From NCBI GenBank assembly GCA_951812995.1, contig CATOTD010000002.1, forward strand, positions 707,468 to 771,467: 64,000 bases of DNA. The letters run 5' to 3'. Below the pieces are notes generated by a model. It was not told where the DNA came from and did not search any database. It saw only the letters and a program-made list of their open reading frames with translations. This stretch comes from an uncultured Gammaproteobacteria bacterium (GTDB lineage Bacteria; Pseudomonadota; Gammaproteobacteria; Eutrophobiales; Eutrophobiaceae). The translations under genes and the position numbers were made by a program. Of the stretch, positions 1,746-61,059 are shown one piece after another (position 1 is the stretch's first letter; every line of letters begins with the position of its first letter).

Positions 1746-1855
1746 AAACGTGCCTGACTTCTGAACTCAGATAGCCGTCTGATTTTGCAAGCGGAGACCT
1801 TTGCACAAAACACCGCATCTGAATATTTTTTATCCCGGTAATGACTCAATTTTCA

Positions 1856-2162
1856 GCGACTGGGTTGGGTTGGGTCGGATCGAGCTGGGTCGAGCTGGGT
1901 CGGACTGGGTTTGGCCGAGCGTAGCCGGGTTGGGTTGAACGGGGTCGGGCTGGATTGAGTCGAGCCAGGGCCGGGTCGGGTTGAGTCGGATCGAGCGGGT
2001 TGAGTCGGATCGAGCATGGTCGGGTTGGGTTGATCTGGGCATGGGTCGGACTAGGTTGGGCCGAGCGTAGCTGGATTGAGCTGAGCGAGGTCGGGCGTGT
2101 TCGGGCCGAATTGGATTGAGTCGAGCCGGGTTGGGCTGGGTCAAGCTGGGTTGGGCCGGGTA
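1856..2162. repeat. G-rich array of degenerate GGGTYG/GAGYYG hexamer-like repeats, with a partial head motif GACCTTTGCAC upstream at 1796-1806
   Basis: Read directly: tgggttgggttgggtcggatcgagctgggtcgagctgggtcgg...; no stop codons in two minus-strand frames, which produces spurious ORFs 1830-2216 and 1846-2220. Confidence 0.8.
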
Positions 2163-2243
2163 CTGAGCCTGGATAATCTGCTTCATCTTGACAAATTGGG
2201 GTGGTAAAGTAGACACTCATTACCTATTAAAGGATAGGACAAC

Positions 2244-9838: not shown

Positions 9839-10019
9839 TTAACGTTACGATCCAGTGGCTATGCGACAACTGACTAAAAGTAGCGCTCGTATAATGGCTA
9901 TAACAAACGTTGCCAATAGGTTTGCGCAATGTTTATGCCGACTACAGCCGCCGTTCGCACTATGTTTATAGTTTGACCTTGTGGCAGGTTTGCAAGATCA
10001 GTGATTCAACATTATTTGC

Positions 10020-10067
10020 GACCTTTGCACTAAAGTGATGTTTACCCACACCCGAGTCCGCCCGACC
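10020..10067 (+). repeat. Head motif of the dispersed repeat family (GACCTTTGCACTAAAGTGAT + gtttacccacacccgagtccgcccgacc) immediately followed by IS256 copy 1
   Basis: 20-mer identical to 15565-15584; see findings. Confidence 0.8.
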
Positions 10068-10074
10068 TTATATG

Positions 10075-11427: not shown

Positions 11428-11531
11428 ATTATTGACACTACCGCTGGTTGAGACCTCCACGCCCTACATTTCCTGAAACAACGCGACAATGTCACAGGTG
11501 GTATTGCCTTTGGCATAGAGACTGAGAATCT

Positions 11532-12830: not shown

Positions 12831-13192
12831 AGATGGGTGCTTCTTGACCAGTGCTGGCGCCAAGCTACCCTTTCTGTCGCGGGGTGTTTCCAGCTCGAAT
12901 GCGCCCTCTTCAGTGCGTAGCATTTTATGACTGCGACCATTGCGGTTATTGGATTTTCCTGCCTACTCATGTCTGGCATAGCCAAGGTGTTCATCGAACT
13001 CGGCATTCAGTGCCGCCTCAATGCTTACCCTGGTCAATGCCTGACGGAACGTATACAGGTCTTCTTCGGTTTTGATGCCCCTGGCAGTTTCACGTGCCAG
13101 TGATTTGATTGCTTCGGGTTGCATGTGCTTATCCTCAGCCCCTTCGGGGCAATAATCAATGATAAGCAGTTACATAGTTTTTGGGGCTGTCT
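12831..13192 (-). mobile_element. N-terminal fragment of a second IS256-like element, interrupted by IS5 copy B
   Basis: Minus-strand translation MQPEAIKSLARETARGIKTEEDLYTFRQALTRVSIEAALNAEFDEHLGYARHE-stop is a typical IS256-family transposase N-terminus; the segment is duplicated at 49804-50165. Confidence 0.75.
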
Positions 13193-13314: not shown

Positions 13315-14412
13315 ATGTCCGGCAATACATTTGGAAAATTATTCACCATCACCAGTGCTGGTGAAAGCCATGGCTTTGGTTACGTCTGCATTGTTGATGG
13401 CTGTCCGCCAGGATTAGGCCTATCGGAAGCCGATATACAACACGATCTGGATCGTCGTAAACCGGGTAAGTCGCGGCATGTGACCCAACGTAGGGAATCC
13501 GATACGGTCAAAATCATATCGGGGGTGTTTAAGGGTGTGACGACGGGTACGCCGATAGGACTTCTGATTGAAAACGAAGATCAAAAATCAAAAGACTACA
13601 ACAACATTAAAGCGATGTTCCGACCCGGGCATGCCGATTATACTTACCAACAAAAATTTGGGATCCGTGATTATCGTGGTGGTGGCCGTGCCTCTGCGCG
13701 TGAGACCTGTATGCGTGTCGCCGCCGGTGCTATTGCCAAGAAATATCTGCAAGCGCAATTTGGGTTAGTTATTCGTGCTTATCTTGCGCAAATTGGGACC
13801 ATCAAAATCGATCTTAAAGATTGGGATGCGGTAGAAAACAATACATTCTTTTGCCCTGATCCTGGGCGTGTTGCAGAGTTAGATCATTATATGGACGCGC
13901 TCCGTAAAGCAGGAGAATCTATAGGGGCGCGTATTAATATTGTTGCTGAAAATATACCGATTGGCTTAGGTGAGCCGATATTTGATCGCCTAGATGCTGA
14001 TATCGCCAAGGCAATGATGAGTATCAATGCGGTCAAAGGTGTGGAAATAGGCGCAGGGTTTGATGCAGTGGAACACAAAGGATCCGAGCATCGCGATGAA
14101 ATGACACCGACCGGTTTTATGGGTAATAATGCCGGTGGTATTTTAGGGGGCATCTCATCGGGCCAGGATATTTTAGTCAGTATCGCGCTGAAACCCACTT
14201 CTAGTATCCGCTTGCCAGGCAAGACGATAAATGAATCAGGACAGGCGGTTCAGGTTATTACCAAGGGTCGACACGATCCTTGTGTCGGTATTCGAGCGAC
14301 ACCGATTGCCGAGGCAATGTTGGCATTGGTCTTAATGGATCATGTCTTAAGGCATCGTGCACAATGCGCGGACGTTAAGTCTGAAACTCTGATTACGCCT
14401 CCATCCAAATAA
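13315..14412 (+). CDS. aroC: Chorismate synthase
   Basis: 365 aa; N-terminus [18 protein letters not shown] matches AroC. Confidence 0.95.
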
Positions 14413-15578
14413 TGATTAACGTTGCCGGCTTGCCTTACTGGCGACTGTCCGGTTTTTATTTTCTGTTTTTTATTACCATCGGCTGTTTTATGCCGTATTG
14501 GTCGCTTTATCTCAAATCAATAGGCATGACTGCTGAGGACATCGGGATTCTTTCTGCGGTCGTTGTCGCAACAAAAATATTTTCCGCGTTTCTCTGGGGC
14601 TGGATCGTTGACCATACCGGTAAGCGTATGCAAGTAATACGTTATACCTCATTATTATCGATGTTGTCGTTTTCACTGGTGTTGTTTTACCAGGATTTCT
14701 GGTCGTTATTTATCATTCTTTTTATGTTTTCAATATTCTGGAGTGCCGCTTTACCTCAACTTGACGCAGCCACTTTATCTCATCTCGGCAAAGAGAGTGA
14801 TAGTTATACCGTGGTGCGTATATGGGGGTCGATCAGTTTTATTATCGCTGTACTTGCCCTAGGCCAATTTTTTGATCGCCAACCTATAGATTATTTATTA
14901 CCCATTATTATTTTTACCATGGCGCTGGTTTGGATACATTCTTTATTTATCCCGAAGATGCGCGCTGCACGCGAACAGTCGAATGGCCTGACATTCAAGT
15001 CTATCTTGTGTAAGCCGCATGTTATTACGTTAATGGTTGTGTGTTTTCTGGTCCAGGCAAGCCATGGTCCGTATTACACATTTTTTTCTATTTACCTTGA
15101 AGATCATGGTTACTCCAATAGTTTTATCGGTACGTGCTGGGCATTAGGCGTTTTTGCTGAGGTTATAATCTATATTTTTATCCATAAGGTTATAGGTCGT
15201 TTTGGATTGCGAAAATTAATGATCCTCACATTGATATGCGCAACGGCGCGCTGGTTGTTGATCGCATTTCTTGTAGAAAATATATTGATATTATTATTTG
15301 CGCAATGTTTACATGCCGCTACATTTGGCATTTATCACGCCGTCGCGATTCAATATATTCATCGTGAATTCAAGGGCGCACACCAGGGGCGTGGCCAGGC
15401 ACTTTACAGCAGTATCAGCTTTGGTGCGGGTCTCGCATTAGGCAGTTTGATCAGCGGCTATCTTTGGGATCTGATTGGTGCCATGCAGACTTTTCTTTTT
15501 GCCGCCACACTCAGTGCGACAGGTGTCATCGTTGCCTGGATTGGATTGCAAGCGCATGAATCAAGACCTTTGCACTAA
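14412..15578 (+). CDS. MFS transporter (HcaT/PPP-like family), conserved downstream of aroC
   Basis: 388 aa, 12 predicted TM helices; last codons and stop are supplied by the repeat head motif. Confidence 0.8.
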   Translation: MINVAGLPYWRLSGFYFLFFITIGCFMPYWSLYLKSIGMTAEDIGILSAVVVATKIFSAFLWGWIVDHTGKRMQVIRYTSLLSMLSFSLVLFYQDFWSLFIILFMFSIFWSAALPQLDAATLSHLGKESDSYTVVRIWGSISFIIAVLALGQFFDRQPIDYLLPIIIFTMALVWIHSLFIPKMRAAREQSNGLTFKSILCKPHVITLMVVCFLVQASHGPYYTFFSIYLEDHGYSNSFIGTCWALGVFAEVIIYIFIHKVIGRFGLRKLMILTLICATARWLLIAFLVENILILLFAQCLHAATFGIYHAVAIQYIHREFKGAHQGRGQALYSSISFGAGLALGSLISGYLWDLIGAMQTFLFAATLSATGVIVAWIGLQAHESRPLH

Positions 15579-15912
15579 AGTGATACTTGACCATACCCGT
15601 CTCGACTCAACCCAGCTTGACCCAGCCCGGTCAAGCTCGATCCAACCCGACCATGCCCGACTCGACTCAACCCAGCTCGACCCAGCCCGGTCAAGCTCGA
15701 TCCAACCCGACCAAGCCCGACCCGACTCGACTCAGCCCGGTCCAGATCGACCCAACCCCGACCTGTCTTGACTCAACCCGACTCAGCCCGGTCCAGCTCG
15801 ATCCAATCCGACCTGTCTCGACTCAGCCCCGGCTCGACTCAGATCTACCACGACCCGATCACATCCAGCCCGACCCGTCTCGACCCGACCAAGCCCGACC
15901 CGACTCAGCCTA
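15565..15912 (+). repeat. Dispersed repeat element: head GACCTTTGCACTAAAGTGATACTTGACCATACCCG followed by ~320 bp of degenerate C-rich CGACYC/CAACCC/CAGCCC hexamer-like repeats
   Basis: Read directly; C about 45%, G about 17%; stop-free in all three plus frames, producing artefact ORFs 15475-15771, 15587-15964 and 15768-15968. Confidence 0.85.
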
Positions 15913-15920
15913 TATTCGGG

Positions 15921-16319
15921 CTAGCCTGGGTCTTTATTCATCATATGATTCGCCGTGCGCGTGAATGAGGACATGAGCTGTTCCTTGAACATGGTGTCAA
16001 CACGCATCTCTGCCAACGCTTTGTGCATACACATCAACCATTGATCCCGCTCTTCGGTACCAATCGGAAAAGGCAAATGCCGGGCACGTAGCTGCGGGTG
16101 GCCAAAGGCGGCAACATAACGATCCGGCCCACCCATCCAACCACTGAGAAACATAAAAAACTTTTCGCGCGAATGCTTAAGATCTTTTGGATGTAAATTA
16201 CGGATCAACGTTGCCTCAGGCAAAGTATCCATGTTGTCATAAAATAATGTCACTAACTGCTGCAATCCTTCATCCCCACCAATGCGATCATACGGTTTTT
16301 TAATGTTTGTCTCGTTCAT
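15921..16319 (-). CDS. glbO: Group II truncated haemoglobin (trHbO/GlbO)
   Basis: 132 aa; YDRIGG..LVTLFYDNM..HPQLRARHLPFPIG motifs typical of 2-on-2 haemoglobins. Confidence 0.8.
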   Translation of the reverse strand: MNETNIKKPYDRIGGDEGLQQLVTLFYDNMDTLPEATLIRNLHPKDLKHSREKFFMFLSGWMGGPDRYVAAFGHPQLRARHLPFPIGTEERDQWLMCMHKALAEMRVDTMFKEQLMSSFTRTANHMMNKDPG

Positions 16320-29479: not shown

Positions 29480-30391
29480 ATGAAGTTTGATAATATTCTA
29501 CAAGCGATCGGTAACACACCGCATATCGCAATCAATAAACTCTTCCGCGACGATCTTACGGTATGGATGAAAACAGAGAGCTTTAATCCCTGTAGCAGCA
29601 TTAAAGATCGTATTGCAAAAGCCATGATCGAAGATGCAGAAGCGCAAGGACTCCTGCACAAGGACACGGTGATTATCGAACCCACTTCGGGTAATACCGG
29701 TATTGGATTGGCGCTGGTCGCAGCAGTCAAGGGTTATCGTCTGATACTGACCATGCCGGAATCGATGTCGATTGAAAGACGGAAGTATATGCAAGCACTG
29801 GGTGCCGAACTCGTGTTGACACCAAAAGAATTGGGTATGGGCGGCACGATTGCGAAAGCAAAGGAAATACTCGCTGAGCACCCGCATGGATGGATGCCGC
29901 AACAGTTTGAAAATCCAGCGAATGTCCAAATACACAAAGACACGACCGCACAAGAGATCCTGGCCGATTTTCCAGACGGCATTGACTACATGATTACGGG
30001 TGTGGGCACGGGTGGACATATCACGGGTTGTGCCGAAGTTTTGAAGGCACGGTTTCCAAGTCTGCAAGTCTTTGCGGTTGAACCCGAAAAATCCCCCGTG
30101 ATTAGTGGCGGCGAAAAAGGCTTACACCGACTGCAAGGCATTGGTGCTGGTTTTGTGCCTGACATACTTGACGTAGATATCCTGGACGGCACCATTCAGG
30201 TTTCCGAAGAACATTCGTTTGCAATGGCACGGCGCTGTGCGAAAGAAGAAGGCATCTTTATTGGCATCTCTTCTGGCGCAACACTGGCCGCAGTAAAACA
30301 AAAAGAAAATGACATGATCGCTGGCAGTCGTGTCTTGATCTTCAGCTATGATTCTGGCGAACGCTATCTTTCGATAGCAGATTTATTCTAG
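29480..30391 (+). CDS. cysK: Cysteine synthase A family protein (PLP-dependent O-acetylserine sulfhydrylase paralogue)
   Basis: Aligns with CysK ([43 protein letters not shown]). The lysine-loop region reads NPCSSIKDR rather than the canonical sequence. Confidence 0.8.
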
Positions 30392-30473
30392 CCTGGATAT
30401 GACGAGACCACTGCACAAAACAGCGCACCGCGAGAGGTATTTATAATAATGATACTTATATAAGGGGAAAATA

Positions 30474-30774: not shown

Positions 30775-31120
30775 ACCCGACATTGTGCCTACAAGAGGTC
30801 AGATGCAGCATGTTATTAGCCAGCCCCTCAACACCCTGTTTGATTACCCGCAGGATATGCACAAGGCAATCTATACCACCAACGCCATTGCATCGCTCAA
30901 CAGCGTCATCAGGAAAGCCATCAAAAAACGTAAGTTGTTTCCAACCGACGACGCTACCAGAAAGGTGAGCTATCTGGCGATTCAAGATGCATCAAAGCAG
31001 TGGACTATGCCGATTAAATATTGGCAACCAGCGATGAATCGCTTTATGATCGAATTCGAAGACCGACTAAAGGACTTCGTTTAAGCAACGGCAGTTACAC
31101 AGAATTTGGGAAAGGCTCGG
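30775..31120 (+). mobile_element. C-terminal fragment of the second IS256-like element
   Basis: ORF 30785-31084 ends ..LFDYPQDMHKAIYTTNAIASLNSVIRKAIKKRKLFPTDDATRKVSYLAIQDASKQWTMPIKYW.., near-identical to 57860-58198; element end ..GGCTCG abuts a partial head motif at 31121-31137. Confidence 0.8.
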
Positions 31121-31145
31121 CTTTAGTGCAAAGGTCGCATTCATT

Positions 31146-33354
31146 TCAATCTTGCAAGCCATAACTTTCCCATAATTCCTTTGCCAATACATAAGCCTTT
31201 TTACGTTCTTCACGTGTCATGCGAGATTCTATCTCATCACGTAATGCTTCGGCTGGTTTGTATCCACTGGCAGCAACAATGCCTATCCATGCGTAGGCTT
31301 GAATAATATTTTTTTCGACAATGATGCCATCATAATACAATTTGCCCAGATGATATTGAGCCATTATATGTTTCCCCCGGGCTGCTTTGACAAACCATGT
31401 CAACGCGGCGGACGCATCTTGCGGCACACCTAATCCTTCTTGATACATATTCAGCAGGTTTTTTTGTGATTTTGCAAACCCTTGTTTTGCAGCCTTGCGA
31501 TACCATGCAATCGCCGCCGTGTAATCTGGAAGCCTCTAAAAACCGTGCATTTTGTGGTACGATCTGATTCACTTGATGTGGGAGGATTTTGTTTATGCAC
31601 GCACCTGGATTGTTTGATTTGACGGATCATTTGGCGCGGCTTTCGGCGATGGAATATCCGCTTGAGGTTTTGGAGCGGCACGTTGATTTCGAAGTGTTTC
31701 GCCCAGTTCTTGTTGAAGCACTTGGCTATGGGGAACGTCCCAAAGGTGGTCGCCCACCCTATGATGCCGTTGTGATGTTCAAGGTGCTGGTGTTGGCCTC
31801 GATGCACAATCTGAGTGATGAGCGGATGGAGTTTCTCATTCGTGACCGTTTCAGTTGGCTGCGGTTCCTGGGATTTCAAATCGGGGAGCCGACACCTGAT
31901 CAGAAGACGATCTGGCTTTTCAGAGAGAAGCTGACCTAGGCGGGTGTCTTCAAGGCCCTGTTTGCCGCGTTTGAAGCTCAGCTGTGCGCGCGGGGATACA
32001 AACCGACCGGCGGTCAGATTATGGATGCCACGTTGGTCTTTGCCCCGCGCCAGCGGATGACGAAAGAAGAGAAAGCGCGCGCCAAGGCAGGTGAGGCCGC
32101 ATCTGACATCTGGCCCGATGATCTGTCCAAGGCAGCGCAGAAAGACACCGATGCACGTTGGACGGTCAAGTATTCAAAGGCCAAGACGACCAAGGAGGGT
32201 GAGGAGGATACTGGCCTTGTCGATATTTCGGTTCCGCACTTTGGGTACAAGAACCACGTGTCCATTGATCGCAAATGGCGCTTCATCCGGGGTGAGACTG
32301 GCACGAATGCGGCTCGCTACGACGGGCATGAACTGTCCTCGGTTCTGGACGAGACAAACAGCTCGAAGGCAGTTTGGGCCTATACCAGGTACCGCTCGGC
32401 CAGGAATGAGGCTTGGCTGAAGGCGCAAGGGTACCGCTCACATATCCATCGCAAGAAGCCACGCGGCAAACCCATGGCCAGGCATATTCGTCGGGGCAAC
32501 GCGACACGCTCCGCCATCCGCGCCTGTGTTCGGCTACGAGAAAGGGCCCATGGCTCTGACCATCCGCTCAATCGGCCAAACCCGTGCGAAGGCCCGCATG
32601 ACAATGGCCAACCTGAGCTACAACTTCCGCCGTCTGATTTTCCACGAGCGACGACAGGCCACAGCCTGACTCCGCCCAAATTCCGGAAATACCCGCCCTG
32701 GCAGACCCAAACAGCGCAACACAGCCTCAAATACCACCGACCTTGACCTTCACACCCGCTATGCGGGTGACAACGACTGGTGCTCGCGTCAAAATCCATC
32801 CAGAATCAGCTTTGTTCGAGGTCTCCATCTTGACTGATGCCGAGATTATTTTCATACATAACACCTAGGTCATGTTGCGCACTCGCCGTACCTTTATCTG
32901 CGGCCTTGCGATACCATTTGGCGGCCTCTTTATAATCTTGTTTAACACCAATGCCTTCATGAAACATATACGCTAAATTTGCTTCGGCCTCAGCATTGCC
33001 CTGTACGGCAGCATTGCGCGCCCACTTCAGTGCCAACCAATAGTCTCGCTTAACGCCAAAACCGAGAATATATAACTGTGCCAATCTTATCTGCGACTCT
33101 GCAACACCTTGTTCTGCGGCCTTTTGAAACCAGCTTGCAGCTTGCGTATAATCCCGTTCAACACCCAGGCCTCTTTCATACATTAAGCCAAGATAGTTTT
33201 GCGCGCGACTATTGCCGGCCTTTGCCAACGGTGTAAATTGAGCCCATGCTGTTTTATATTCATGCGCATTATAGGCCTCAACAGCAAGGTCAAATTCAGA
33301 TTGCCCGCAGGCAGACAACATCACCAGCAAAAATATTAAGCCATTTTTTTTCAT
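31146..33354 (-). pseudogene. Sel1-repeat lipoprotein gene split by IS5-family copy C (N-part 32827-33354, C-part 31146-31527)
   Basis: N-part has a lipoprotein signal MKKNGLIFLLVMLSAC and Sel1 repeats. Removing the IS and one copy of the 4-bp duplication ATCT restores the continuous Sel1 repeat ..GISQDYTAAIAWYRKAAKQG.. Confidence 0.85.
31528..32826 (+). mobile_element. IS5-family (ISL2-like) element copy C with a 4-bp target-site duplication ATCT (31524-31527 and 32827-32830)
   Basis: Ends GGAAGCC...GGTCTCC; ORFs 31589-31939 and 32021-32746; in-frame TAG and C-terminal frameshift. Confidence 0.9.
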
Positions 33355-42338: not shown

Positions 42339-43184
42339 ATGGGATACACTATAGAGATGGATGATAAAAACAAAATCATTACCCGGTTTGAGGCGACAGA
42401 TGATGCGCCGCAAAGTATATCTACCCAGCATGGAGAAATAGCCTGTTATTCAAACCGATCACCCCACAAGACAGATATTACCCATAACAAAAATGCGGTA
42501 AATGAAGATGCCTTAGGCATCATTCCAATCGCTGCAGACACAACCGTGCTGGTTATTGCCGATGGACTTGGCGGTATGCCTGCTGGCGAGCAGGCCTCAC
42601 AAATCATGATCGAATGTTTAATGTCCGCCTTAAACAATACCGGCATAGTCGTGCGTGAGGCCATCTTAAATAGCATTGATAAAGCGCACAAAACAATACT
42701 GGATCTGAAGATCAATGCGGGCACAACTGTATCTATTGTTGAATTAACGGGTCATAAATTAAGGACTTATCATGCTGGAGATTCCTCAATTTTGCTTATT
42801 ACAAATCATGGCAATATCAAGTATCAGACACTTTTTCATTCACCCGTTGGCTACGCACTTGCCTGCGGGGTGCTGAATCAAGAACAGGCTATGCGTCACC
42901 CGGAACGCAATTTCATATCAAATTATGTGGGTTGTGCAGGCCTGTATGTCACTATGAGCGGCATTATCGAACTTGATCCAAATGACACCATCATGCTTGC
43001 GAGTGATGGTCTGACTGACAATCTATACGATAAAGAAATCTGCACGTTTATGCGTCATGGATCTTTGTTGGAAGGCACTAAAGAACTTATATCGCAGTGT
43101 AATAAAAATATGCACGAATCCCGGCCCGACCGACTGTGTCATCCTGATGATCTAACATTAATCGCCTTTCGACAACATACTTGA
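42339..43184 (+). CDS. PP2C-family (PPM) serine/threonine protein phosphatase
   Basis: ADGLGGMPAGEQAS and DG(L)TD motifs; no cognate kinase gene in the window. Confidence 0.75.
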   Translation: MGYTIEMDDKNKIITRFEATDDAPQSISTQHGEIACYSNRSPHKTDITHNKNAVNEDALGIIPIAADTTVLVIADGLGGMPAGEQASQIMIECLMSALNNTGIVVREAILNSIDKAHKTILDLKINAGTTVSIVELTGHKLRTYHAGDSSILLITNHGNIKYQTLFHSPVGYALACGVLNQEQAMRHPERNFISNYVGCAGLYVTMSGIIELDPNDTIMLASDGLTDNLYDKEICTFMRHGSLLEGTKELISQCNKNMHESRPDRLCHPDDLTLIAFRQHT

Positions 43185-43575
43185 CTGTCGGTCCAGCCCG
43201 ACCCGACTTGACTCACGACCGCCCCGACTCCGCCCGTCTCAACCCAGCTCAACTCACGACCGCCCCGACTCCGCCCGGCCCAGCTCAACCCGACCCTAAC
43301 CAACGCCGTCCGCCTCAACCTAGCTCAACTCAACCCCGGTCCGACTTGACTCACGCCCGCCCCGACTCCGCCCGGCCCAGCTCACCCCGACCCAACCCAG
43401 CCCTAACCAACGCCGTCCGCCTCAACCTAGCTCAACTCAACCCCGGTCCGACTTGACTCCGCCTGGCTCAACTCAACTCACGGCCGTCCCGACTCCGCCC
43501 GACCCAGCTCAACCCGGCCTGGCCTGACTCAACTCAACCCGACCCGACCCAGTCCGACCCGGCCCGACCCAGCCA
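43179..43575 (+). repeat. Dispersed repeat element: ACTTGAC junction overlapping the PP2C stop codon, followed by ~390 bp of C-rich CGACYC-type repeats with an internal ~100-bp higher-order duplication
   Basis: Segments 43275-43350 and 43373-43458 are near-identical; the last ~15 codons of ttcA are encoded inside the array. Confidence 0.8.
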
Positions 43576-44403
43576 AGCCGCACGATCTGACGATGCACCA
43601 CCTTGATCTTTACCGAGCTGCTGAAATGAAAAAGCCGTTGTATCCAATAAATGTGATGGCACAATATTTTGCATACTGGTAAAAATAGTTTCTACTCGAC
43701 CGGGTTGTTGTTTGTTCCAATCTCTCAACATTTGCTTGATAGCCTGACGCTGCATATTGTCCTGCGACCCGCAGAGTGTACACGGTATGATAGGAAAGGC
43801 CGCGGCCTCTGCATAGGCTTTTATATCGGCCTCTGCACAATAGACCAACGGTCGAATAACGATGTTTTCTCCGTCATCACTGCGTAATTTCGCCGGCATT
43901 GATTTCAACTTGCCACCATAAAACATATTCAGAAATAGTGTTTCAATCATATCTTCGCGATGATGCCCCAACGCTATTTTCGTATACCCTTGCGCTTTAG
44001 CAAAACGATAGATAATCCCCCGGCGCAACCTTGAACATAATCCACAATAATAGGTCTTATCTGCGGGGATAACGCGCTTGACGACACTATAGGTGTCTTC
44101 TTCAATGACATGATATTCAATGCCAAGTGCATCCAGATAATCAGGCAGTACCTGTGCTGGAAAACCCGGCTGCTTTTGGTCGAGATTGACCGCGATCAAT
44201 TCAAAATCAACGGGTGCGCTGCGTTGCAGGCTTTGCAAGATATCCAACATCGTATATGAATCTGCACCGCCCGACAGGCACACCATAATCCGATCACCGG
44301 CTTCAATCATATTAAAATCGGCAATAGCACGTCCTGCATGACGACGTAAACGCTTGTGTAGTTTATCGTGGTGATACTTTTCTTTATGCAGTGCTGTAGC
44401 CAT
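43534..44403 (-). CDS. ttcA: tRNA 2-thiocytidine(32) synthetase TtcA
   Basis: Start [15 protein letters not shown]..; PP-loop CLSGGADS and the CxxC cysteines typical of TtcA. Confidence 0.9.
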
Positions 44404-47147: not shown

Positions 47148-48502
47148 GATAACATAAATCATCTTTCGCAAATATGAAGAGGCGGTTTTCCTTTATCTGG
47201 TTAAATAAAAAATGACATAACCATTTATTTGACCAGGAGAAGAGTTGCCATGAGCGATGATACAAGCAAGCACTTGCACAACGTAGTCCCTATTGATGAA
47301 CAGGAACTGCAGGGCCATCTCAACAAAGTGGTACTGAAGACTGTGGAAGACACCCTTAACCAGATGCTTGATGCTGAGGCTGATGCGCTGGTGGGTGCTG
47401 ATCGATATGCACGCACTGAGACGCGCAAAGACGACCGGTCTGGTAGCTACACCAGGAAGTGCCACACAAGGGCTGGAGAGCTTGAGTTAAAGATGCCGAA
47501 GCTACGCAAGCAGACCTTTGAGATGGCCATCATAGAGCACTATCGGCACCGTGTAGCGTCAATTGAAGAGGCACTGATCGAGATGTATCTGGCAGGTGTT
47601 TCAGTACAACGTGTAGAAGACATTACCGTAGCATTGTGGGGTACCCGTGTCAGCTTAGGGACTATTTCAAAGCTCAACCAGCGTATCTATGGGCAGATTG
47701 AAGAGTGGCGTAATCGCCCCATAGGGAGTGATTTCCCTTATGTATACCTGGACGGTGTTGTGCTCAAACGCAGTTGGGGCGGTGCAGTGAAGAACGTTTC
47801 TGTTCTAGTCGCCATAGGTGTTAGGGACGATGGCTACCGCCGCATTCTAGGGATTGTTGAAGGTACTAAGGAGGATAAGGTGGGATGGTCAGGATTCCTG
47901 CGTCATTTAAAGGCACGCGGTCTCAAGGGCATCAGGTTGGTGCTCAGTGATGCCTGTCTTGGGCGCAAGGAGTCGATCGGTGACTTCTACCCTGATGCTG
48001 AGTGGCAGCGTTGTATTGTGCACTTCTACCGCAACGTCTTCAGTCATGTGTCTCGTGGTCGTGTCAAAGAAGTCTCTCGCATGTTGCAGGCTATTCATGC
48101 ATCTGAATATCTGGAATCTGCCAGGCATAAGGCCACGGAGGTCGAGAAGAAACTCAGGGACATGAAGTTATCGAGTGCGGCGGATTGGCTGGACCAGTGC
48201 ATGGAAGAGACCCTAACGTATTATCGGTTTCTGGCAGAGCACTGGATTTGCATTCGGACTAACAATCCTTTGGAGAGGATCATCCGAGAAATCAGGCGGC
48301 GAACACGAGTAGTGTGTGCATTCCCGGATGGCAACTCGGCGTTGATGCTTTGTGCGGCAAGGCTTAGACACATCGCGGGGAGCTAGTGGGGAACGCGGAC
48401 ATATCTGAACATGGATTTGCTCCAAGAGATGGATAAAGAAAAGGATTTTCAGGTAGCGTAACAACCAGATTTAAGGGAAAGCCAAATCAGAAAGTGCGAA
48501 AG
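47148..48502 (+). mobile_element. IS256-family element copy 2; intact 385-aa transposase (47229-48386)
   Basis: Only copy without the 1-bp deletion; same ends as copies 1 and 3. Confidence 0.9.
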
Positions 48503-48504
48503 CT

Positions 48505-49803
48505 GGAAGCCTCTAAAAACCGTGCATTTTGTGGTACGATCTGATTCACTTGATGTGGGAGGATTTTGTTTATGCACGCACCTGGATTGTTTGATTTGAC
48601 GGATCATTTGGCGCGGCTTTCGGCGATGGGAGATCCGCTTGAGGTTTTGGAGCGGCACGTTGATTTCGAAGTGTTTCGCCCAGTTCTTGTTGAAGTGCTT
48701 GGCTATGGGGAACGTCCCAAAGGTGGTCGCCCGCCCTATGATGCCGTTGTGATGTTCAAGGTGCTGGTCTTGGCCTTGATGCACAATCTGAGTGATGAGC
48801 GGATGGAGTTTCTCATTCGTGACCGTTTCAGTTGGCTGCGGTTCCTGGGATTTCAAATCGGGGAGCCGACACCTGATCAGAAGACGATCTGGCTTTTCAG
48901 AGAGAAGCTGACCTAGGCGGGTGTCTTCAAGGCCCTGTTTGCCGCGTTTGAAGCTCAGCTCTGCGCGCGGGGATACAAACCGGCCGGCGGTCAGATTGTG
49001 GATGCCACGTTGGTCTTTGCCCCGCGCCAGCGGATGACGAAAGAAGAGAAAGCGCGCGCCAAGGCAGGTGAGGCCGCATCTGACATCTGGCCCGATGATC
49101 TGTCCAAGGCAGCGCAGAAAGACACCGATGCGCGTTGGACGGTCAAGTATTCAAAGGCCAAGACGACCAAGGAGGGTGAGGAGGATACTGGCCTTGTCGA
49201 TATTTCGGTTCCGCACTTTGGGTACAAGAACCACGTGTCCATAGACCGCAAATGGCGCTTCATCCAGGGTGAGACTGGCACGAATGCGGCTCGCTACGAC
49301 GGGCATGAACTCTCCTCGGTTCTGGACGAGACAAACAGCTCGAAGGCGGTTTGGGCCGATACCAGGTACCGCTCGGCCAGGAATGAGGCTTGGCTGAAGG
49401 CGCAAGGGTACCGCTCACATATCCATCGCAAGAAGCCACGCGGCAAACCCATGGCCAGGCATATTCGTCGGGGCAACGCGACACGCTCCGCCATCCGCGC
49501 CTGTGTTCGGCTACGAGAAAGGGCCCATGGCTCTGACCATCCGCTCAATCGGCCAAACCCGTGCGAAGGCCCGCATGACCATGGCCAACCTGAGCTACAA
49601 CTTCCGCCGTCTCATTTTCCACGAGCGACGACAGGCCACAGCCTGACTCCGCCCAAATTCCGGAAATACCCGCCCTGGCAGTCCCAAACAGCGCAACACA
49701 GCCTCAAATACCACCGACCTTGACCTTCACACCCACTATGCGGGTGACAACGACTGGTGCTCGCGTCAAAATCCATCCAGAATCAGCGTTGTTCGAGGTC
49801 TCC
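48505..49803 (+). mobile_element. IS5-family (ISL2-like) element copy D, inserted 2 nt after the IS256 copy 2 end
   Basis: ORFs 48566-48916 and 48998-49723; in-frame TAG plus C-terminal frameshift. Confidence 0.85.
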
Positions 49804-50165
49804 AAATGGGTGCTGCTTGACCAGTGCTGGCGCAAAGCTACCCTTTCTGTCGCGGGGTGTTTCCAGCTCGAATGCGCCCTCTTCAGTGCGTAGCATTTTA
49901 TGACTGCGACCATTGCGGCTATTGGATTTTCCTGCCTACTCATGTCTGGCATAGCCAAGGTGTTCATCGAACTCGGCATTCAGCGCTGTCTCAATGCTTA
50001 CCCTGGTCAATGCCTGACGGAACGTATACAGGTCTTCTTCGGTTTTGATGCCCCTGGCAGTTTCACGTGCCAGTGATTTGATTGCTTCGGGTTGCATGTG
50101 CTTATCCTCAGCCCCTTCGGGGTAATAATCAATGATAAGCAGTTACATGGTTTTTGGGACTATCT
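49804..50165 (-). mobile_element. N-terminal fragment of the second IS256-like element (duplicate of 12831-13192)
   Basis: About 97% identical to 12831-13192; joins the right end of IS5 copy D. Confidence 0.75.
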
Positions 50166-53332: not shown

Positions 53333-53588
53333 TTTGCTACCTCAAAAGCGGCACTTTATTTATATTCATTTGATAAGCGTCAATAGTTTCACTTTTTATT
53401 TAAAAAAGCAATATATATCCATGTTTTATATGAATAATAGTATATTTTATTGGAGAGTCAACTGGTATGAGGAAAGACTTGTCAGCAACGTTTACAGGCC
53501 GAGACCTTTGCAGAAAATACCGCATTTGAAGATTTTTTATCCCGTCTATGGCCGACGGCAATGGTTCAATGTTCAGCCACTGGGCATG

Positions 53589-53675
53589 GTCAAGCGGAGT
53601 CGGGTCGGGTTGAGCGGAGCCGGGTCGGGTCGGGCTAGGTGTGGGTTAGTCAAGTATCGCTTTAGTGCAAAGGTC
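53589..53675 (-). repeat. Dispersed repeat element on the minus strand: head GACCTTTGCACTAAAGCGATACTTGAC overlapping the tsaE stop codon, followed by a short C-rich array
   Basis: Plus strand reads gtcaagcggagtcgggtcgggttgagcggagccgggtcgggtcgggctaggtgtgggttagtcaagtatcgctttagtgcaaaggtc. Confidence 0.8.
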
Positions 53676-54120
53676 CGAGGCCCTGTAAAATGATCTCGCC
53701 TGCGGGTGAGCAGGATTTAATTTCTATCCCTCGACCAACATCACAATCGGTAAGCGACAAGATTATATCGGCTGGCGGAAGTACGGTTTTGCCTTGTTCT
53801 GGCCACTCAAAAAAACAGATCGCGCAGCTATCACAATAATCGCGGATACCGATTACCTCAAGCTCTTCAGGGTCATTTATTCTATATAAATCAAAGTGAT
53901 AAATATCATGTCCGGCAACAACATAAGACTCAAGTAAGGTATAGGTAGGGCTTTTAACATGACCCGCATAACCCAATGTATTTAATACACCTCGAACCAA
54001 AGTCGTCTTGCCGGCACCCAAATCACCCCGTAGATAAATCCTCTCCCCACCCTGTAAACCACCCGCTACTTTAGCACCCAAGGCCAGCGTTTGTGCTTCA
54101 TTTTCCAAGATAAGGCGCAT
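53662..54120 (-). CDS. tsaE: tRNA threonylcarbamoyladenosine biosynthesis ATPase TsaE
   Basis: P-loop GDLGAGKTTLVRG; 152 aa. Confidence 0.9.
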   Translation of the reverse strand: MRLILENEAQTLALGAKVAGGLQGGERIYLRGDLGAGKTTLVRGVLNTLGYAGHVKSPTYTLLESYVVAGHDIYHFDLYRINDPEELEVIGIRDYCDSCAICFFEWPEQGKTVLPPADIILSLTDCDVGRGIEIKSCSPAGEIILQGLGPLH

Positions 54121-57824: not shown

Positions 57825-58373
57825 CGAGCCTTTGCCGAATTCTGTGTAACTGCCGTTGGTTAAACGAAGTCCTTTAGTCGGTCTTCGAATTCGATCATAA
57901 AGCGATTCATCGCTGGTTTCCAATATTTAATCGGCATAGTCCACTGCTTTGATGCATCTTGAATGGCCAGATAGCTCACCTTTCTGGTAGCGTCATCGGT
58001 TGGAAACAACTTACGTTTTTTGATGGCTTTCCTGATGACGCTGTTGAGCGATGCAATGGCGTTGGTGGTATAGATTGCCTTGCGCATGTCCTGCGGGTAA
58101 TCAAACAGGGTGTTGAGGTTCTGCCAATGACTCTGCCAGGAACGGCTGGTCTTAGGGTATTTGGCATCCCATTCGTCACCAAAGACATCAAGCACCAACA
58201 GTGCTTCCGCCTCCGTAGCTGACTGGTAGATTTGCTACAAGTCGACTACAACCGCCTTGTAGTCCTTCCAGGTAACATACTGCATCGCGTGCCTGATCCT
58301 ATGCACAATGCATCGCTAGATGCGGGTTTGCGGGTAGACGGTATTGATGAGATCAGGAAAACTCTTGAGCCCG
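57825..58373 (-). mobile_element. C-terminal ~550-bp remnant of the second IS256-like element, with internal stops, truncated by IS256 copy 3
   Basis: Minus-strand translation ..DVFGDEWDAKYPKTSRSWQSHWQNLNTLFDYPQDMRKAIYTTNAIASLNSVIRK.. contains stops; end ..CGAGCC matches 31120. Confidence 0.8.
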
Positions 58374-59727
58374 GATAACGTAAATCATCTTTCGCAAATT
58401 TGAAGAGGCGGTTCCCCTTTATCTGGTTAAATAAAAAGTGACATAACCATTTATTTGACCAGGAGAAGAGTCGCCATGAGCGATGATACAAACAAGCACT
58501 TGAACAATGTAGTCCCTATTGATGAACAGGAACTGCAGGGCCATCTCAACAAAGTGGTACTGAATACTGTGGAAGACACCCTTAACCAGATTCTGGACGT
58601 TGAGGCTGATGCGCTGGTGGGTGCTGATCGATACGAACGCACTGAGACGCGCAAAGACGACCGGTCTGGTAGCTACACCAGGAAGTGCCACACAAGGGCT
58701 GGAGAGCTTGAGTTAAAGATGCCGAAGCTACGCAAGCAGACCTTTGAGATGGCGATCATAGAGCGCTATCGACACCGTGTAGCGTCAATTGAAGAGGCGT
58801 TGCTCGAGATGTATCTGGCAGGTGTTTCAGTACAACGTGTAGAAGACATTACCGCAGCATTGTGGGGTACCCGTGTCAGCTTAGGGACTATTTCAAAGCT
58901 CAACCAGCGTATCTATGGGCAGATTGAAGAGTGGCGTAATCGCCCCATAGGGAGTGATTTCCCTTATGTATACCTGGACGGTGTTGTGCTCAAACGCAGT
59001 TGGGGCGGTGCAGTGAAGAACGTTTCTGTTCTAGTCGCCATAGGTGTTAGGGACGATGGCTACCGCCGCATTCTAGGGATTGTTGAAGGTACTAAGGAGG
59101 ATAAGGTGGGATGGTCAGGATTCCTGCGTCATTTAAAGGCACGCGGTCTCAAGGGCATCAGGTTGGTGCTCAGTGATGCCTGTCTTGGGCGCAAGGAGTC
59201 GATCGGTGACTTCTACCCTGATGCTGAGTGGCAGCGTTGTATTGTGCACTTCTACCGCAACGTCTTCAGTCATGTGTCTCGTGGTCGTGTCAAAGAAGTC
59301 TCTCGCATGTTGCAGGCTATTCATGCATCTGAATATCTGGAATCTGCCAGGCATAAGGCCACGGAGGTCGAGAAGAAACTCAGGGACATGAAGTTATCGA
59401 GTGTAGCGGATTGGCTGGGTAGTGCATGGAAGAGACCCTAACGTATTATCGGTTTCTGGCAGAGCACTGGATTTGCATTCGGACTAACAATCCTTTGGAG
59501 AGGATCATCCGAGAAATCAGGCGGCGAACACGAGTAGTGTGTGCATTCCCGGATGGCAACTCGGCGTTGATGCTTTGTGCGGCAAGGCTTAGACACATCG
59601 CGGGGAGCTAGTGGGGAACGCGGACATATCTGAACATGGATTTGCTCCAAGAGATGGATAAAGAAAAGGATTTTCAGGTAGCGTAACAACCAGATTTAAG
59701 GGAAAGCCAAATCAGAAAGTGCGAAAG
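58374..59727 (+). mobile_element. IS256-family element copy 3; transposase frameshifted (58455-59441 and 59426-59611) by the same 1-bp deletion as copy 1
   Basis: Same ends as copies 1 and 2. Confidence 0.85.
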
Positions 59728-59729
59728 CT

Positions 59730-61028
59730 GGAAGCCTCTAAAAACCGTACATTTTGTGGTACGATCTGATTCACTTGATGTGGGAGGATTTTGTTTATGC
59801 ACGCACCTGGATTGTTTGATTTGACGGATCATTTGGCGCGGCTTTCGGCGATGGGAGATCCGCTTGAGGTTTTGGAGCGGCACGTTGATTTCGAAGTGTT
59901 TCGCCCAGTTCTTGTTGAAGCACTTGGCTATGGGGAACGTCCCAAAGGTGGTCGTCCGCCCTATGATGCCGTTGTGATGTTCAAGGTGCTGGTGTTGGCC
60001 TCGATGCACAATCTGAGTGATGAGCGGATGGAGTTTCTCATTCGTGACCGTTTCAGTTGGCTGCGGTTCCTGGGATTTCAAATCGGGGAGCCAACCCCCG
60101 ACCAAAAAACGCTCTGGCTTTTCAGAGAGAAGCTGACCCAGGCGGGTGTCTTCAATGCCCTGTTTGCCGCGTTTGAAGCTCAGCTGTGCGCGCGGGGATA
60201 CAAACCGACCGGCGGTCAGATTGTGGATGTCACGTTGGTCTTTGCCCCGCGCCAGCGGATGACGAAAGCAGAGAAAGCGCGCGCCAAGGCAGGTGAGGCC
60301 GCATCTGACATCTGGCCCGATGATCTGTCCAAGGCAGCGCAGAAAGACACCGATGTGCGTTGGACGGTCAAGTATTCAAAGGCCAAGACGACCAAGGAGG
60401 GTGAGGAGGATACTGGCCTTGTCGATATTTTGGTTCCGCACTTTGGCTACAAGAACCACGTGTCCATAGACCGCAAATGGCGCTTCATCCGGGGTGAGAC
60501 TGGCACGAATGCGGCTCGCTACGACGGGCATGAACGCTCCTCGGTTCTGGACGAGACAAACAGCTCGAAGGCGGTTTGGGCCGATACCAGGTACCGCTCG
60601 GCCAGGAATGAGGCTTGGCTGAAGGCGCAAGGGTACCGCTCACATATCCATCGCAAGAAGCCACGCGGCAAACCCATGGCCAAACATATTCGCCAGGGCA
60701 ACGCGACACGCTCCGCCATCCGCGCCTGTGTTCGGCTACGAGAAAGGACCCATGGCTCTGACCATCCGCTCAATCGGCCAAACCCGTGCGAAGGCCCGCA
60801 TGACCATGGCCAACCTGAGCTACAACTTCCGCCATCTGATTTTCCACGAGCGACGACAGGCCACAAGCCTGACTCTGTCCAAATTCGGAAATACCCGCCC
60901 TGGCAGACCCAAACAGCGCAACACAGCCTCAAATACCACCGACCTTGACCTTCACACCCGCTATGCGGGTGAGGCCGAGCGAAACTCGCTTCGTCCTCGT
61001 CCCAAAAACCAAGTTGTTCGAGGTTTCC
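59730..61028 (+). mobile_element. IS5-family (ISL2-like) element copy E, variant subtype; 385-aa fused ORF 59791-60948 (CAG in place of the TAG) but C-terminal frameshift and a diverged right end
   Basis: Junction with IS256 copy 3 is identical to the copy 2/copy D junction; right end GGTTTCC rather than GGTCTCC. Confidence 0.85.
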
Positions 61029-61059
61029 AACTTGTCAGACACTACTTTTGACAATAGCT

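What the first reader, a model, noticed from the sequence alone, without database searches (positions are those of the whole stretch)
53649..53675. Repeat head motif supplies the C-terminal codons and stop codon of two unrelated genes
The MFS transporter ends ..RPLH-stop, encoded by aGACCTTTGCACTAAag (15565-15578). tsaE ends ..GPLH-stop, encoded by the same motif on the minus strand (53662-53675). The PP2C stop (43182-43184) lies in the ACTTGAC junction, and the last ~15 codons of ttcA are inside the 43179-43575 array. The element therefore inserts into, or is selected at, the extreme 3' end of ORFs and rewrites their C-termini.
Basis: seen in the sequence. Interest (0 to 1): 0.6.

Follow-up and report, generated by a model that had tools for sequence, protein, structure and literature searches.

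The report
Mosaic repeat rewrites gene 3' ends
A small non-coding repeat found only in this bacterial lineage sits directly against the ends of housekeeping genes and supplies their last few codons and stop codons, which is real but has been described before for similar repeats in other bacteria.

Summary
GACCTTTGCACTAA occurs four times exactly in 64 kb. Its TAA, read in the same frame, ends the MFS transporter (RPLH*) and TsaE (GPLH*).

The motif is the end of a non-coding mosaic element. It has inverted GACCTTTGCA termini, distinct 'head' and 'tail' segments, and a 60-400 bp core of degenerate 5-nt repeats (C 47-51% on one strand).

- No orthologue ends in PLH (0 of 119 for each of three proteins).
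- MFS orthologues end GLK[DN]* at 381-382 aa; the window protein has 388 aa.
- TtcA orthologues end AWLLGxQD* at 282 aa; the window protein has 289 aa and its tail is read from the array.
- In relatives, tsaE's stop lies about 20 nt from a conserved downstream promoter block. In the window the 171-bp element sits between them.
- PP2C keeps a normal C-terminus; only its stop codon lies in the element.
- The globin, a PLP-enzyme gene and a Sel1 gene also stop inside element modules.

Best explanation: a MITE-like mobile repeat that survives only at extreme 3' ends, and whose stop-rich head closes interrupted reading frames.

Coxiella QMITEs are a published precedent. This is a new family of a known kind, of modest interest.

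The parts
53491..53689 (-). The one complete element, lying between tsaE and amiC. Tail terminus 53491-53512 (TTTACAGGCCGAGACCTTTGCA). Tail segment to about 53592. Pentamer array about 53593-53648. Head 53649-53675. Right terminus 53666-53689 (TGCAAAGGTCCGAGGCCCTGTAAA). CCGAG is a direct repeat at 53499-53503 and 53675-53679. The tsaE stop (TAA) is at 53662-53664.
   Evidence: The termini pair as a roughly 22-bp stem in RNA and DNA folds. The conserved amiC promoter block follows the element.
53662..54120 (-). tsaE. Its last codons GGA CCT TTG CAC TAA (GPLH*) lie in the head motif.
   Evidence: Pfam TsaE E 3.9e-37; orthologue alignment; 0 of 119 homologues end in PLH.
15546..15932 (+). Element filling the gap between the convergent MFS and globin genes. 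TTGCAAG box 15546-15552. ATGAAT box 15557-15562. Head motif 15565-15578 (MFS stop TAA at 15576-15578). Head to 15591. C-rich array 15589-15912, with a 60-nt higher-order duplication. Right module CTAGCCTGGGTC 15921-15932; its CTA (15921-15923) is the globin stop (TAG) on the minus strand. There is no tail segment.
   Evidence: MFS orthologues are 6-7 aa shorter. Globin homologues end HM.NQ plus 1-4 residues.
14412..15578 (+). MFS (PPP-family) transporter of 388 aa, ending ..GLQAHESRPLH*.
   Evidence: Pfam MFS_1_like E 6.5e-115; orthologues end GLK[DN]*.
43177..43580 (+). Array element between the convergent PP2C and ttcA genes. Only the ATACTTGAC junction of the head remains (43177-43185; the PP2C stop TGA is at 43182-43184). 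C-rich array 43186-43580, with a 107-nt higher-order duplication. No tail. The ttcA stop is at 43534-43536 on the minus strand, so the last 10-14 ttcA codons are array sequence.
1784..2206 (+). Element downstream of polA (stop at 1743-1745). Tail terminus TTTGCAAGCGGAGACCTTTGCAC 1784-1806. Tail segment to about 1860. G-rich array 1861-2165. AGCCTGGAT module 2166-2174. The far flank 2184-2206 is partly inverted relative to the left flank. No recognisable head. polA itself is untouched.
9987..10072 (+). Orphan head: GGTTTGCAAGATCAGTGA box, motif at 10020-10033, and a 32-nt array stub. It is cut off by an IS256-family insertion at 10073.
31120..31160 (-). Head truncated after TAAAGC by the right end of an IS256-family element (31119). 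Motif at 31123-31136. TTGCAAGATTGA box upstream, whose TGA (31146-31148) is the stop of the Sel1-repeat gene (..YGLQD*).
30389..30432 (+). Degenerate tail terminus GAGACCACTGCACAAAACAGCGCACC (30405-30430), preceded by TAGCCTGGAT. The TAG (30389-30391) is the stop of a PLP-dependent enzyme gene (29480..30391).
   Evidence: nhmmer E 0.027; sequence; AGCCTGGRT occurs three times, always at element boundaries; Pfam PALP.

Best explanation
The motif is the terminal inverted repeat of a lineage-specific, non-coding, MITE-like mosaic element.

Structure (shown). From one end to the other the element has:
- a terminus (...GACCTTTGCAC);
- a 'head' (TAAAGYGATACTTGAC);
- a variable array of degenerate RRYCC pentamers;
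- a 'tail' of about 80 nt;
- the inverted terminus (TGCAAAGGTC...).

Origin and placement. The tsaE/amiC copy lies between tsaE and a promoter block that is conserved in relatives, which marks that copy as an insertion. Mobility of the family as a whole is inferred from this and from the dispersed, related copies. In a compact genome the only tolerated sites are the few bases between a stop codon and the next functional signal, plus the dispensable last codons of a gene. Surviving copies therefore abut or overlap 3' ends (inferred).

How reading frames are closed (shown). The head carries stops early in two of its three frames: TAA at bases 12-14, and TGA at bases 18-20 in the MFS and orphan copies (TAAAGTGAT) but not in the tsaE copy. 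The ACTTGAC junction holds a further TGA in the TAA frame, which matters only where the TAA is missing, as at PP2C. An interrupted frame is therefore closed within a few codons, giving the shared xPLH* tail. A frame that enters the array, which has almost no stops, runs further; this is the TtcA case (+7 aa).

Later change (inferred). Slippage or unequal exchange expanded the arrays. Deletion or recombination between arrays removed a head or tail at three loci, which are also synteny breakpoints. IS elements landed in two heads.

Effect on the proteins. The new tails are probably neutral by-products rather than functional tags.
For: Repeat family:
- There are four exact copies and three degenerate copies of the terminus, and four arrays, in 64 kb.
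- The one complete copy has termini that pair as a roughly 22-bp stem.
- Two tails align at 78% identity over about 100 nt.

Arrays:
- They show strict 5-nt periodicity: autocorrelation about 0.5 at lags 5, 10 and 15, against about 0.17 off phase.
- Composition is A .22, C .47-.51, G .17, T .12, and arrays share 12-20-mers.
- Recent 60-nt and 107-nt internal duplications are present.

Non-coding: array ORFs have no Pfam match and the window has no Rfam match.

Insertion relative to relatives:
- 15 relatives have 18-30 nt between the tsaE stop and a conserved block (TTGACA..ACTATTATTCATATAAAACATGGATATAGGTTGC). The window has the same block, but after the element.
- None of 55 related loci has the motif or an array.
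- The head 20-mer is absent from 185,579 species genomes.

C-terminal changes: MFS +6-7 aa, TtcA +7 aa, TsaE with a unique PLH end, PP2C unchanged.

Synteny breaks exactly at the arrays.

Against: - Only one copy has both termini, and no unambiguous target-site duplication recurs. CCGAG flanks the complete copy only.
- No parent IS is established. Similarity to an IS256-family end (14/15 with one gap) had 6 of 500 shuffles scoring as well, before any correction for about 20 comparisons. Similarity to the IS5-like ends is not significant.
- No empty site at the DNA level is available, because the nearest relatives are only 60-84% identical in protein.
- Sequences just outside GACC are also shared between copies (TTGCAAG in 4 copies; ATGAAT in 3). 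Yet they encode residues conserved in orthologues: L of GLK in MFS, IL of GExIL in TsaE, N of HMxN in the globin. The true element boundary is therefore uncertain by about 15 nt. Either the ends include these boxes (needing coincidence or selection) or the element targets such sequences.
- The sample is seven termini from one 64-kb window.
Confidence: 0.62

Rival explanations
1. Targeted insertion. The element (core ACCTTTGCA...TGCAAAGGT) integrates into the loop of pre-existing palindromic hairpins that sit at gene ends, such as REP-like or terminator-like structures. Its position at 3' ends would then reflect target choice rather than selection alone.
For: In the complete copy the arrangement is: outer inverted (TTTACAGG / CCTGTAAA), middle direct (CCGAG at 53499-53503 and 53675-53679), inner inverted (ACCTTTGCA). 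This is the signature of a 5-bp target duplication inside a palindrome.

Removing the element and one CCGAG restores ATT TTA CAG GGC CTC GGC CTG TAA. That gives TsaE ..ILQGLGL* at 150 aa, a length seen in 18 of 119 orthologues, with the conserved IL and the normal distance to the -35 box.

The flanks of the MFS/globin element are also inverted copies (ATGAATCAAGACC / ATGAATAAAGACC). So, partly, are the flanks of the polA element.

From my own knowledge: IS1397 and ISKpn1, IS110/IS1111-family elements and class C group II introns target REP or terminator hairpins.
Against: No unoccupied TTRCARG..CYTGYAA hairpin exists in the window (0 found).

The same reconstruction fails at MFS/globin, where it gives long overlapping read-through ORFs.

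Flank sequences are shared between unrelated loci: polA TTTTGCAAGCGGAG against tsaE/amiC GTTTACAGGCCGAG (10/14), and ATGAAT in three copies. That fits long element termini as well as it fits a target family.

No direct repeat is seen at the other copies.
Confidence: 0.22
2. The arrays and motifs are host signals kept by selection, not selfish DNA. The C-rich, G-poor strand downstream of a stop would act as a Rho-utilisation (rut) site, giving a polar terminator or insulator. The G-rich strand would form G-quadruplexes.
For: On the head-sense strand the C/G ratio is 2.5-3.0 and there are about 30 YC dinucleotides per 100 nt. The window averages are 1.04 and 11.3.

All nine canonical G4 motifs in the window lie in the arrays.

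The head-sense C-rich strand follows MFS, PP2C and tsaE. amiC keeps its own conserved promoter after the element.
Against: Orientation is not consistent. polA, globin and ttcA transcripts would carry the G-rich strand.

Fifteen relatives manage without the element at tsaE.

Array length varies from 60 to 400 bp with recent duplications, as expected of unconstrained minisatellites.

No intrinsic-terminator feature lies in the element. No expression data are available.
Confidence: 0.1
3. The shared C-terminal xPLH tail is itself functional, for example as a degradation or sorting tag given to several proteins by the element.
For: Two unrelated proteins end in PLH in the same frame of the motif.
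Against: There are only two cases. The chance that the second uses the same frame is 1 in 3.

Other genes stop in different modules with different tails: HT*, GSG*, DPG*, LQD*, and LF* for the PLP-enzyme gene, whose stop is the TAG of the TAGCCTGGAT module.

The two proteins are a membrane transporter and a cytoplasmic ATPase, with no common biology.
Confidence: 0.03
4. The arrays grew in place by slippage from short seeds at each locus, and the motif similarity reflects segmental duplication rather than transposition.
For: Higher-order tandem duplications occur inside arrays. Three of four arrays lack one or both termini. The Sel1 and orphan heads carry an upstream GLQD*/GLQDQ* reading that resembles the MFS-family C-terminus GLKD*/GLKDN*, as if flanking DNA had been copied along with the head.
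Against: Seven termini lie at unrelated loci with different flanks. The complete copy has inverted termini. No further MFS-like sequence lies next to the orphan copy.
Confidence: 0.05

Closest known systems
QMITE1 / QMITE2 of Coxiella burnetii (Wachter et al. 2018, PMC5896051)
   Same: Both are non-coding, TIR-bounded repeats in a gammaproteobacterium rich in IS elements. Copies overlap the 3' ends of functional genes by 1-50 bp, and one extends a protein (EnhC, +33 aa) and supplies its stop. Both are hot-spots for IS insertion: IS1111 in Coxiella, and two IS256-family ends in heads here.
   Different: There is no sequence similarity. The QMITE descriptions read here do not mention an internal pentanucleotide array. 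The IS families differ.
BOX elements of Streptococcus pneumoniae, and mosaic repeats such as E. coli BIMEs and neisserial NIMEs (from my own knowledge)
   Same: All are modular: two different end modules with partial inverted complementarity enclose a middle module present in a variable number of tandem copies. All are intergenic and usually lie 3' of genes.
   Different: The middle unit of BOX is a defined 45-nt boxB present in 0-8 copies. Here it is a degenerate 5-nt unit repeated 12-80 times, with strong C/G strand asymmetry.
Correia elements (Neisseria), RPE (Rickettsia), ERIC/RU elements (Enterobacteria; Delihas PMC2229807 and PMC2759123, listed but only their abstracts seen)
   Same: All are small inverted-repeat elements that can lie within or at the ends of ORFs and contribute coding sequence or stop codons.
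   Different: These are fixed-length elements without an internal minisatellite. Correia elements have a TA target duplication. RPEs insert in frame inside genes rather than at the extreme 3' end.
Short tandem intergenic repeats: cyanobacterial STRR heptamers, TAACTGA repeats of Beggiatoaceae, mycobacterial MIRU (from my own knowledge)
   Same: All are tandem arrays of short units in intergenic DNA. MIRU units overlap the stop and start codons of neighbouring genes. The Beggiatoaceae examples come from the same broad group (Thiotrichales) as this window's nearest relatives.
   Different: Unit length and sequence differ (5 nt RRYCC here). Those arrays are not enclosed by inverted-repeat termini.

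Membership tests
Bacterial MITE | Small (under about 600 bp) and non-coding | tested here: met
   The complete copy is 171-199 bp and the others are 390-425 bp. Array ORFs have no Pfam match. No Rfam family matches.
Bacterial MITE | Terminal inverted repeats | tested here: met
   In the 53491-53689 copy the termini TTTACAGGCCGAGACCTTTGCA and TGCAAAGGTCCGAGGCCCTGTAAA pair in both RNA and DNA folds. The other copies keep only one terminus or partial termini.
Bacterial MITE | Multiple dispersed copies | tested here: met
   Seven termini and four arrays lie at six loci in 64 kb.
Bacterial MITE | Target-site duplication | tested here: inconclusive
   A 5-bp direct repeat (CCGAG) flanks the one complete copy. 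No direct repeat is seen at the MFS/globin or PLP-enzyme/Sel1 pairs. The flanks are inverted rather than direct.
Bacterial MITE | Termini shared with an autonomous IS in the same genome | tested here: inconclusive
   IS256-family right end CGAGCCTTTGCCGAA against tail CGAGACCTTTGCAGAA: 14/15 with one gap, 6 of 500 shuffles, uncorrected for about 20 comparisons. IS5-like ends share GGAGACCT only, which is not significant.
Bacterial MITE | Presence/absence polymorphism or demonstrated mobility | not testable with these tools
   The source genome and close relatives are not in the searchable collections. The nearest relatives are 60-84% identical in protein.
REP / BIME | 20-40-nt imperfect palindrome units in alternating orientation, associated with a RAYT transposase | tested here: not met
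   No free palindromic unit of the flank type was found. No RAYT-like ORF appeared among those scanned. The core is a unidirectional pentamer array, not a set of palindromes.
Intrinsic (Rho-independent) terminator | G+C-rich hairpin followed directly by a T-run on the transcribed strand | tested here: not met
   No terminator-like site lies inside 53491-53689 on the tsaE strand. The long terminal stem is not followed by a T-run.
Rho-dependent terminator (rut site) | At least about 70 nt of C-rich, G-poor, weakly structured RNA downstream of the stop | tested here: inconclusive
   Composition fits on the head-sense strand: C/G 2.5-3.0 and 30 YC per 100 nt. The fold is no more stable than shuffles (z = 0.01). 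However, half of the adjoining genes would transcribe the G-rich strand, and no transcript data exist.
MIRU-type VNTR / STRR-type short tandem repeats | Head-to-tail copies of one defined unit (40-100 nt for MIRU, 7 nt for STRR) without enclosing inverted termini | tested here: not met
   The unit is a degenerate 5-mer, and the arrays are enclosed by head and tail modules with inverted termini.

The most novel reading that the evidence does not exclude
The element is a hairpin-loop-targeting mobile cassette. It would integrate, with a 5-bp duplication, into palindromes that overlap stop codons. It would carry a polar C-rich (rut-like) / G-quadruplex array, so that each insertion both installs a strand-specific transcription barrier and gives the upstream protein a new C-terminal tail. 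That combination of targeting and payload has not been described for bacterial MITEs.
Probability: 0.1. Interest if true: 0.6.

Novelty: new member of a known kind. Interest (0 to 1): 0.3.

Why it matters
The case shows, with orthologue controls, a selfish repeat changing the C-termini of conserved housekeeping proteins in one lineage: TsaE, TtcA, an MFS transporter and a truncated haemoglobin. It is also a warning for annotation. Stops and tails at these genes are repeat-derived, and the arrays produce spurious 90-130-aa ORFs.

The arrays are the only G-quadruplex-prone, strongly C/G-skewed DNA in the window, and they coincide with synteny breakpoints. They may therefore drive rearrangement in this IS-rich genome.

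The general phenomenon is already documented (Coxiella QMITEs, Correia elements, RPEs). The value here lies in a clean new example and an unusual architecture, not in a new principle.

Tried and rejected
- Finding the source genome or more copies. The exact-protein contig look-ups failed. The head 20-mer had no match in genome contigs. It had one chance match in an AT-rich, probably eukaryotic, metagenome contig. The 18-base head pattern (GACCTTTGCACTAAAGYG) had none in viral contigs. The cluster look-up gave no names.
- Rfam: no family in the window.
- Coding arrays: rejected, no Pfam match.
- Literature search for the motif or array strings: only unrelated primer hits.
- A degenerate head hidden in the PP2C 3' end (CGCCTTTCGAC against GACCTTTGCAC): rejected. 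That DNA encodes the conserved DDLTLIAF end of the PP2C domain.
- A duplicated MFS pseudogene next to the orphan head: rejected by tblastn.
- Free REP-like hairpins as empty targets: none found.
- Parent IS by terminal similarity: the IS5-like ends are not significant and the IS256-like end is only suggestive.
- Intrinsic terminator inside the element: none.
- My first reconstruction, with a 3-bp TCG duplication, was replaced by the 5-bp CCGAG repeat after re-indexing the sequence. A 4-bp GGCC alternative would give a 148-aa ancestral TsaE and cannot be excluded.

Full report
**1. What is there**

The 14-mer GACCTTTGCACTAA occurs exactly at 10020(+), 15565(+), 31123(-) and 53662(-). Near copies lie at 1796(+) and 53503(+). 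By my own arithmetic, about 0.0005 exact copies are expected in 64 kb.

ORF 14412..15578(+) is an MFS_1_like transporter and ORF 53662..54120(-) is TsaE. Both run into the motif in the same frame:
- MFS ends AGA CCT TTG CAC TAA, that is RPLH*.
- TsaE ends GGA CCT TTG CAC TAA, that is GPLH*.

Public gene calls give the same protein ends (P0001, P0121, P0241).

The PP2C stop (43182-43184) lies in ATACTTGAC. This is the same 9-10-mer that joins the motif-bearing 'head' to the array in the MFS and tsaE copies. ttcA reads its last 13-14 codons from the array.

**2. Anatomy of the element**

Extending the copies shows a mosaic element.

- Head: GACCTTTGCACTAAAGYGATACTTGAC.
- Core: degenerate pentamers (GACCC, AACCC, AGCTC, GACTC, GGTCC and similar).
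  - Periodicity is strict at 5 nt: autocorrelation is about 0.5 at lags 5, 10 and 15, and about 0.17 off phase.
  - Composition is C 47-51% and G 17%.
  - There are recent internal duplications of 60 and 107 nt.
- Tail: about 80 nt, ...CCCAGTSGCTGAA.ATTGA...GGGATAAAAAAT.TTCA.ATGCGGT.TTTT.TGCAAAGGTC. It ends in the inverted copy of the motif.

One copy is complete (53491-53689). Its termini pair as a roughly 22-bp stem. The other copies are partial:

| Locus | What is present |
|---|---|
| 1784-2206, after polA | tail and array |
| 15546-15932, MFS/globin | head, array and a short CTAGCCTGGGTC end |
| 43177-43580, PP2C/ttcA | junction and array only |
| 9987-10072 | head, cut by an IS256-family element |
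| 31120-31160 | head, cut by an IS256-family element |
| 30389-30432 | degenerate tail terminus 8 nt after a PLP-enzyme gene (nhmmer E 0.027) |

Nothing in the element is coding or matches Rfam.

**3. The orthologue test**

*TsaE.*
- The nearest relatives are Thiotrichaceae and other gammaproteobacterial MAGs (60-68% identity, G+C 0.38-0.41).
- Their tails after the conserved GExIL vary in length (3-8 residues). None of 119 homologues ends in PLH.
- In those relatives the stop is followed, after 18-30 nt, by a conserved block: TTGACA..ACTATTATTCATATAAAACATGGATATAGGTTGC.
- The window has this block too, but only after the element. This marks the element as an insertion.

*MFS.*
- Orthologues (up to 83% identity) show the same aroC-MFS order.
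- They end ..AWxGLK[DN]* at a modal 381-382 aa. The window protein is 388 aa, ..AWIGLQAHESRPLH*.
- Nucleotide homology to the nearest orthologue ends right after GGA, the Gly380 codon.

*TtcA.* Orthologues (84% identity) end ..DAWLLGxQD* at a modal 282 aa. The window protein ends ..[15 protein letters not shown] at 289 aa.

*PP2C.* Homologues align to within 1-3 residues of the window protein's end (DDLTLIAFRQHT*). It is not rewritten.

*Further cases.*
- The globin (15921..16319, -) ends HMMNKDPG*. Solved homologues end HM.NQ plus 1-4 residues. Its last codons GAC CCA GGC TAG lie in the element's right end.
- The TAG of a recurrent TAGCCTGGAT module is the stop of the PLP-enzyme gene.
- The Sel1 gene stops in a TTGCAAGATTGA box just upstream of a head.

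PP2C is the exception.

**4. How it most likely works**

*Shown.* This is a dispersed, non-coding repeat family with inverted termini. One copy lies between a gene end and a conserved promoter. Three to four proteins carry repeat-encoded tails that no orthologue has.

*Inferred.* The element is, or was, mobile. Copies persist only where they do no harm, which in practice means the few bases after a stop and the dispensable last codons.

The head has stops early in two of its three frames:
- TAA at bases 12-14.
- TGA at bases 18-20, present in the MFS and orphan heads (TAAAGTGAT) but not in the tsaE head (TAAAGCGAT).

The ACTTGAC junction adds a TGA in the same frame as the TAA. It serves only where the TAA is absent, as at PP2C. 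An interrupted ORF is therefore closed quickly. A frame that enters the array, which has almost no stops, runs further, as in TtcA.

The arrays then expand by slippage.

Three long arrays lack a terminus and coincide with breaks in synteny. Relatives have ttcA followed by an M50 peptidase gene, and MFS followed by an EAL or DUF992 gene. This suggests deletion or recombination between arrays.

**5. What remains unresolved**

Sequence just outside GACC is also shared between copies:
- TTGCAAG or TTACAGG lies 4-23 nt upstream of GACC at six termini.
- ATGAAT occurs at three termini.

Yet this sequence encodes residues that are conserved in orthologues: L of GLK, IL of GExIL, and N of HMxN.

In the complete copy the pattern is outer inverted (TTTACAGG / CCTGTAAA), middle direct (CCGAG twice) and inner inverted (ACCTTTGCA).
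- This fits a 5-bp target duplication inside a pre-existing hairpin.
- Removing the element then restores a plausible TsaE end, ..ILQGLGL* at 150 aa.

Against this reading:
- No empty hairpin of that type exists in the window.
- The same reconstruction fails at MFS/globin.
- Flank similarity across loci fits long termini equally well.

I therefore give 0.62 to 'MITE-like repeat filtered by selection' and 0.22 to 'hairpin-targeted insertion'.

A functional role is possible but unsupported by orientation. The evidence for it is a rut-like C-rich strand (C/G 2.5-3.0; 30 YC per 100 nt against 11) and the fact that all nine G4 motifs of the window lie in the arrays.

No parent IS could be established.

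**6. Comparison with known systems**

The closest published case is Coxiella burnetii QMITE1 and QMITE2 (PMC5896051). [quoted passage not shown]

In architecture the element resembles BOX, BIME and NIME mosaic repeats, which have distinct end modules around a variable tandem middle. That comparison rests on my own knowledge.

It fails the definitions of REP/BIME, intrinsic terminators, and MIRU- or STRR-type arrays.

The head 20-mer is absent from 185,579 species genomes, from viral contigs (18-base version of the pattern) and, apart from one chance hit, from 241 million metagenome records. The family is therefore new, but its kind is known.

**7. Verdict**

- Novelty: a new member of a known kind.
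- Interest: 0.3.

Noticed in passing
5909-7209, 11528-12834, 31524-32827, 48503-49807, 59728-61039: Five copies of a 1.3-kb G+C-rich (about 0.58) repeat with ends CTGGAAGCCTC...GAGGTCTCCA. blastn shows 64-69% identity to IS5/IS4-family transposase genes on alphaproteobacterial plasmids. The 241-aa ORF I scanned has no Pfam match, so the real transposase frame is probably different or disrupted.
   Followed up: partly
10073-11427, 47147-48499, 58373-59724: Three copies of an IS256-family IS (Transposase_mut; 385-aa ORF intact in the 47-kb copy). In each one the right end (...GTGCGAAAG) abuts a copy of the 1.3-kb IS5-like element, in either orientation. This suggests that one IS targets the end of the other.
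   Followed up: partly
10066-10073 and 31119-31120: Two IS256-family ends are inserted into element heads: one after 32 nt of array, and one inside the head after TAAAGC. This parallels the IS1111 hot-spots in Coxiella QMITE2.
   Followed up: yes
57825-57840 (rc) compared with 53500-53515: The extreme right end of a second IS256-type element (CGAGCCTTTGCCGAA) resembles the element's tail terminus (CGAGACCTTTGCAGAA): 14/15 with one gap, 6 of 500 shuffles, uncorrected. It may point to the mobilising transposase.
   Followed up: partly
2166-2174, 15923-15931, 30390-30398: AGCCTGGRT occurs three times, all on the + strand and all at element boundaries. With the preceding T it supplies the TAG stop of the PLP-enzyme gene. 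Through the GGCTAGCC palindrome it supplies the TAG stop of the globin on the other strand.
   Followed up: partly
31146-31160 (-), 9987-10004 (+), 15543-15552 (+): The box upstream of three heads reads G-L-Q in the frame of the adjoining ORF: Sel1 ..YGLQD*, orphan ..AGLQDQ*, MFS ..IGLQ... MFS orthologues end GLKD*/GLKDN*. The heads may have carried a piece of the MFS 3' end with them, or this may be coincidence. No further MFS-like sequence flanks the orphan copy.
   Followed up: partly
15587-15964 (+), 1830-2216 (-), 1846-2220 (-), 43181-43456 (+): The arrays have almost no stop codons and produce spurious ORFs of 91-128 aa with no family match. This is a likely source of false 'hypothetical protein' calls.
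   Followed up: yes
window-wide; arrays at 1861-2165, 15589-15912, 43186-43580: All nine canonical G-quadruplex motifs (four G3+ runs with loops of 1-7) in the 64-kb window lie inside the arrays.
   Followed up: yes
L001-L015, about 20-110 nt downstream of tsaE; window 53400-53465: A strongly conserved non-coding block (TTGACA..ACTATTATTCATATAAAACATGGATATAGGTTGCTTTTTTAAA..CTTGAAACTATT) lies between tsaE and amiC across relatives that share only 60-68% TsaE identity. It is more conserved than the proteins' own tails. It is probably the amiC promoter or leader, or an unrecognised regulatory RNA.
   Followed up: no
44828-45506 and 63327-64000: A 99-100% identical inverted duplication of about 675 bp (two adjoining blocks), unrelated to the element. 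I did not examine it.
   Followed up: no
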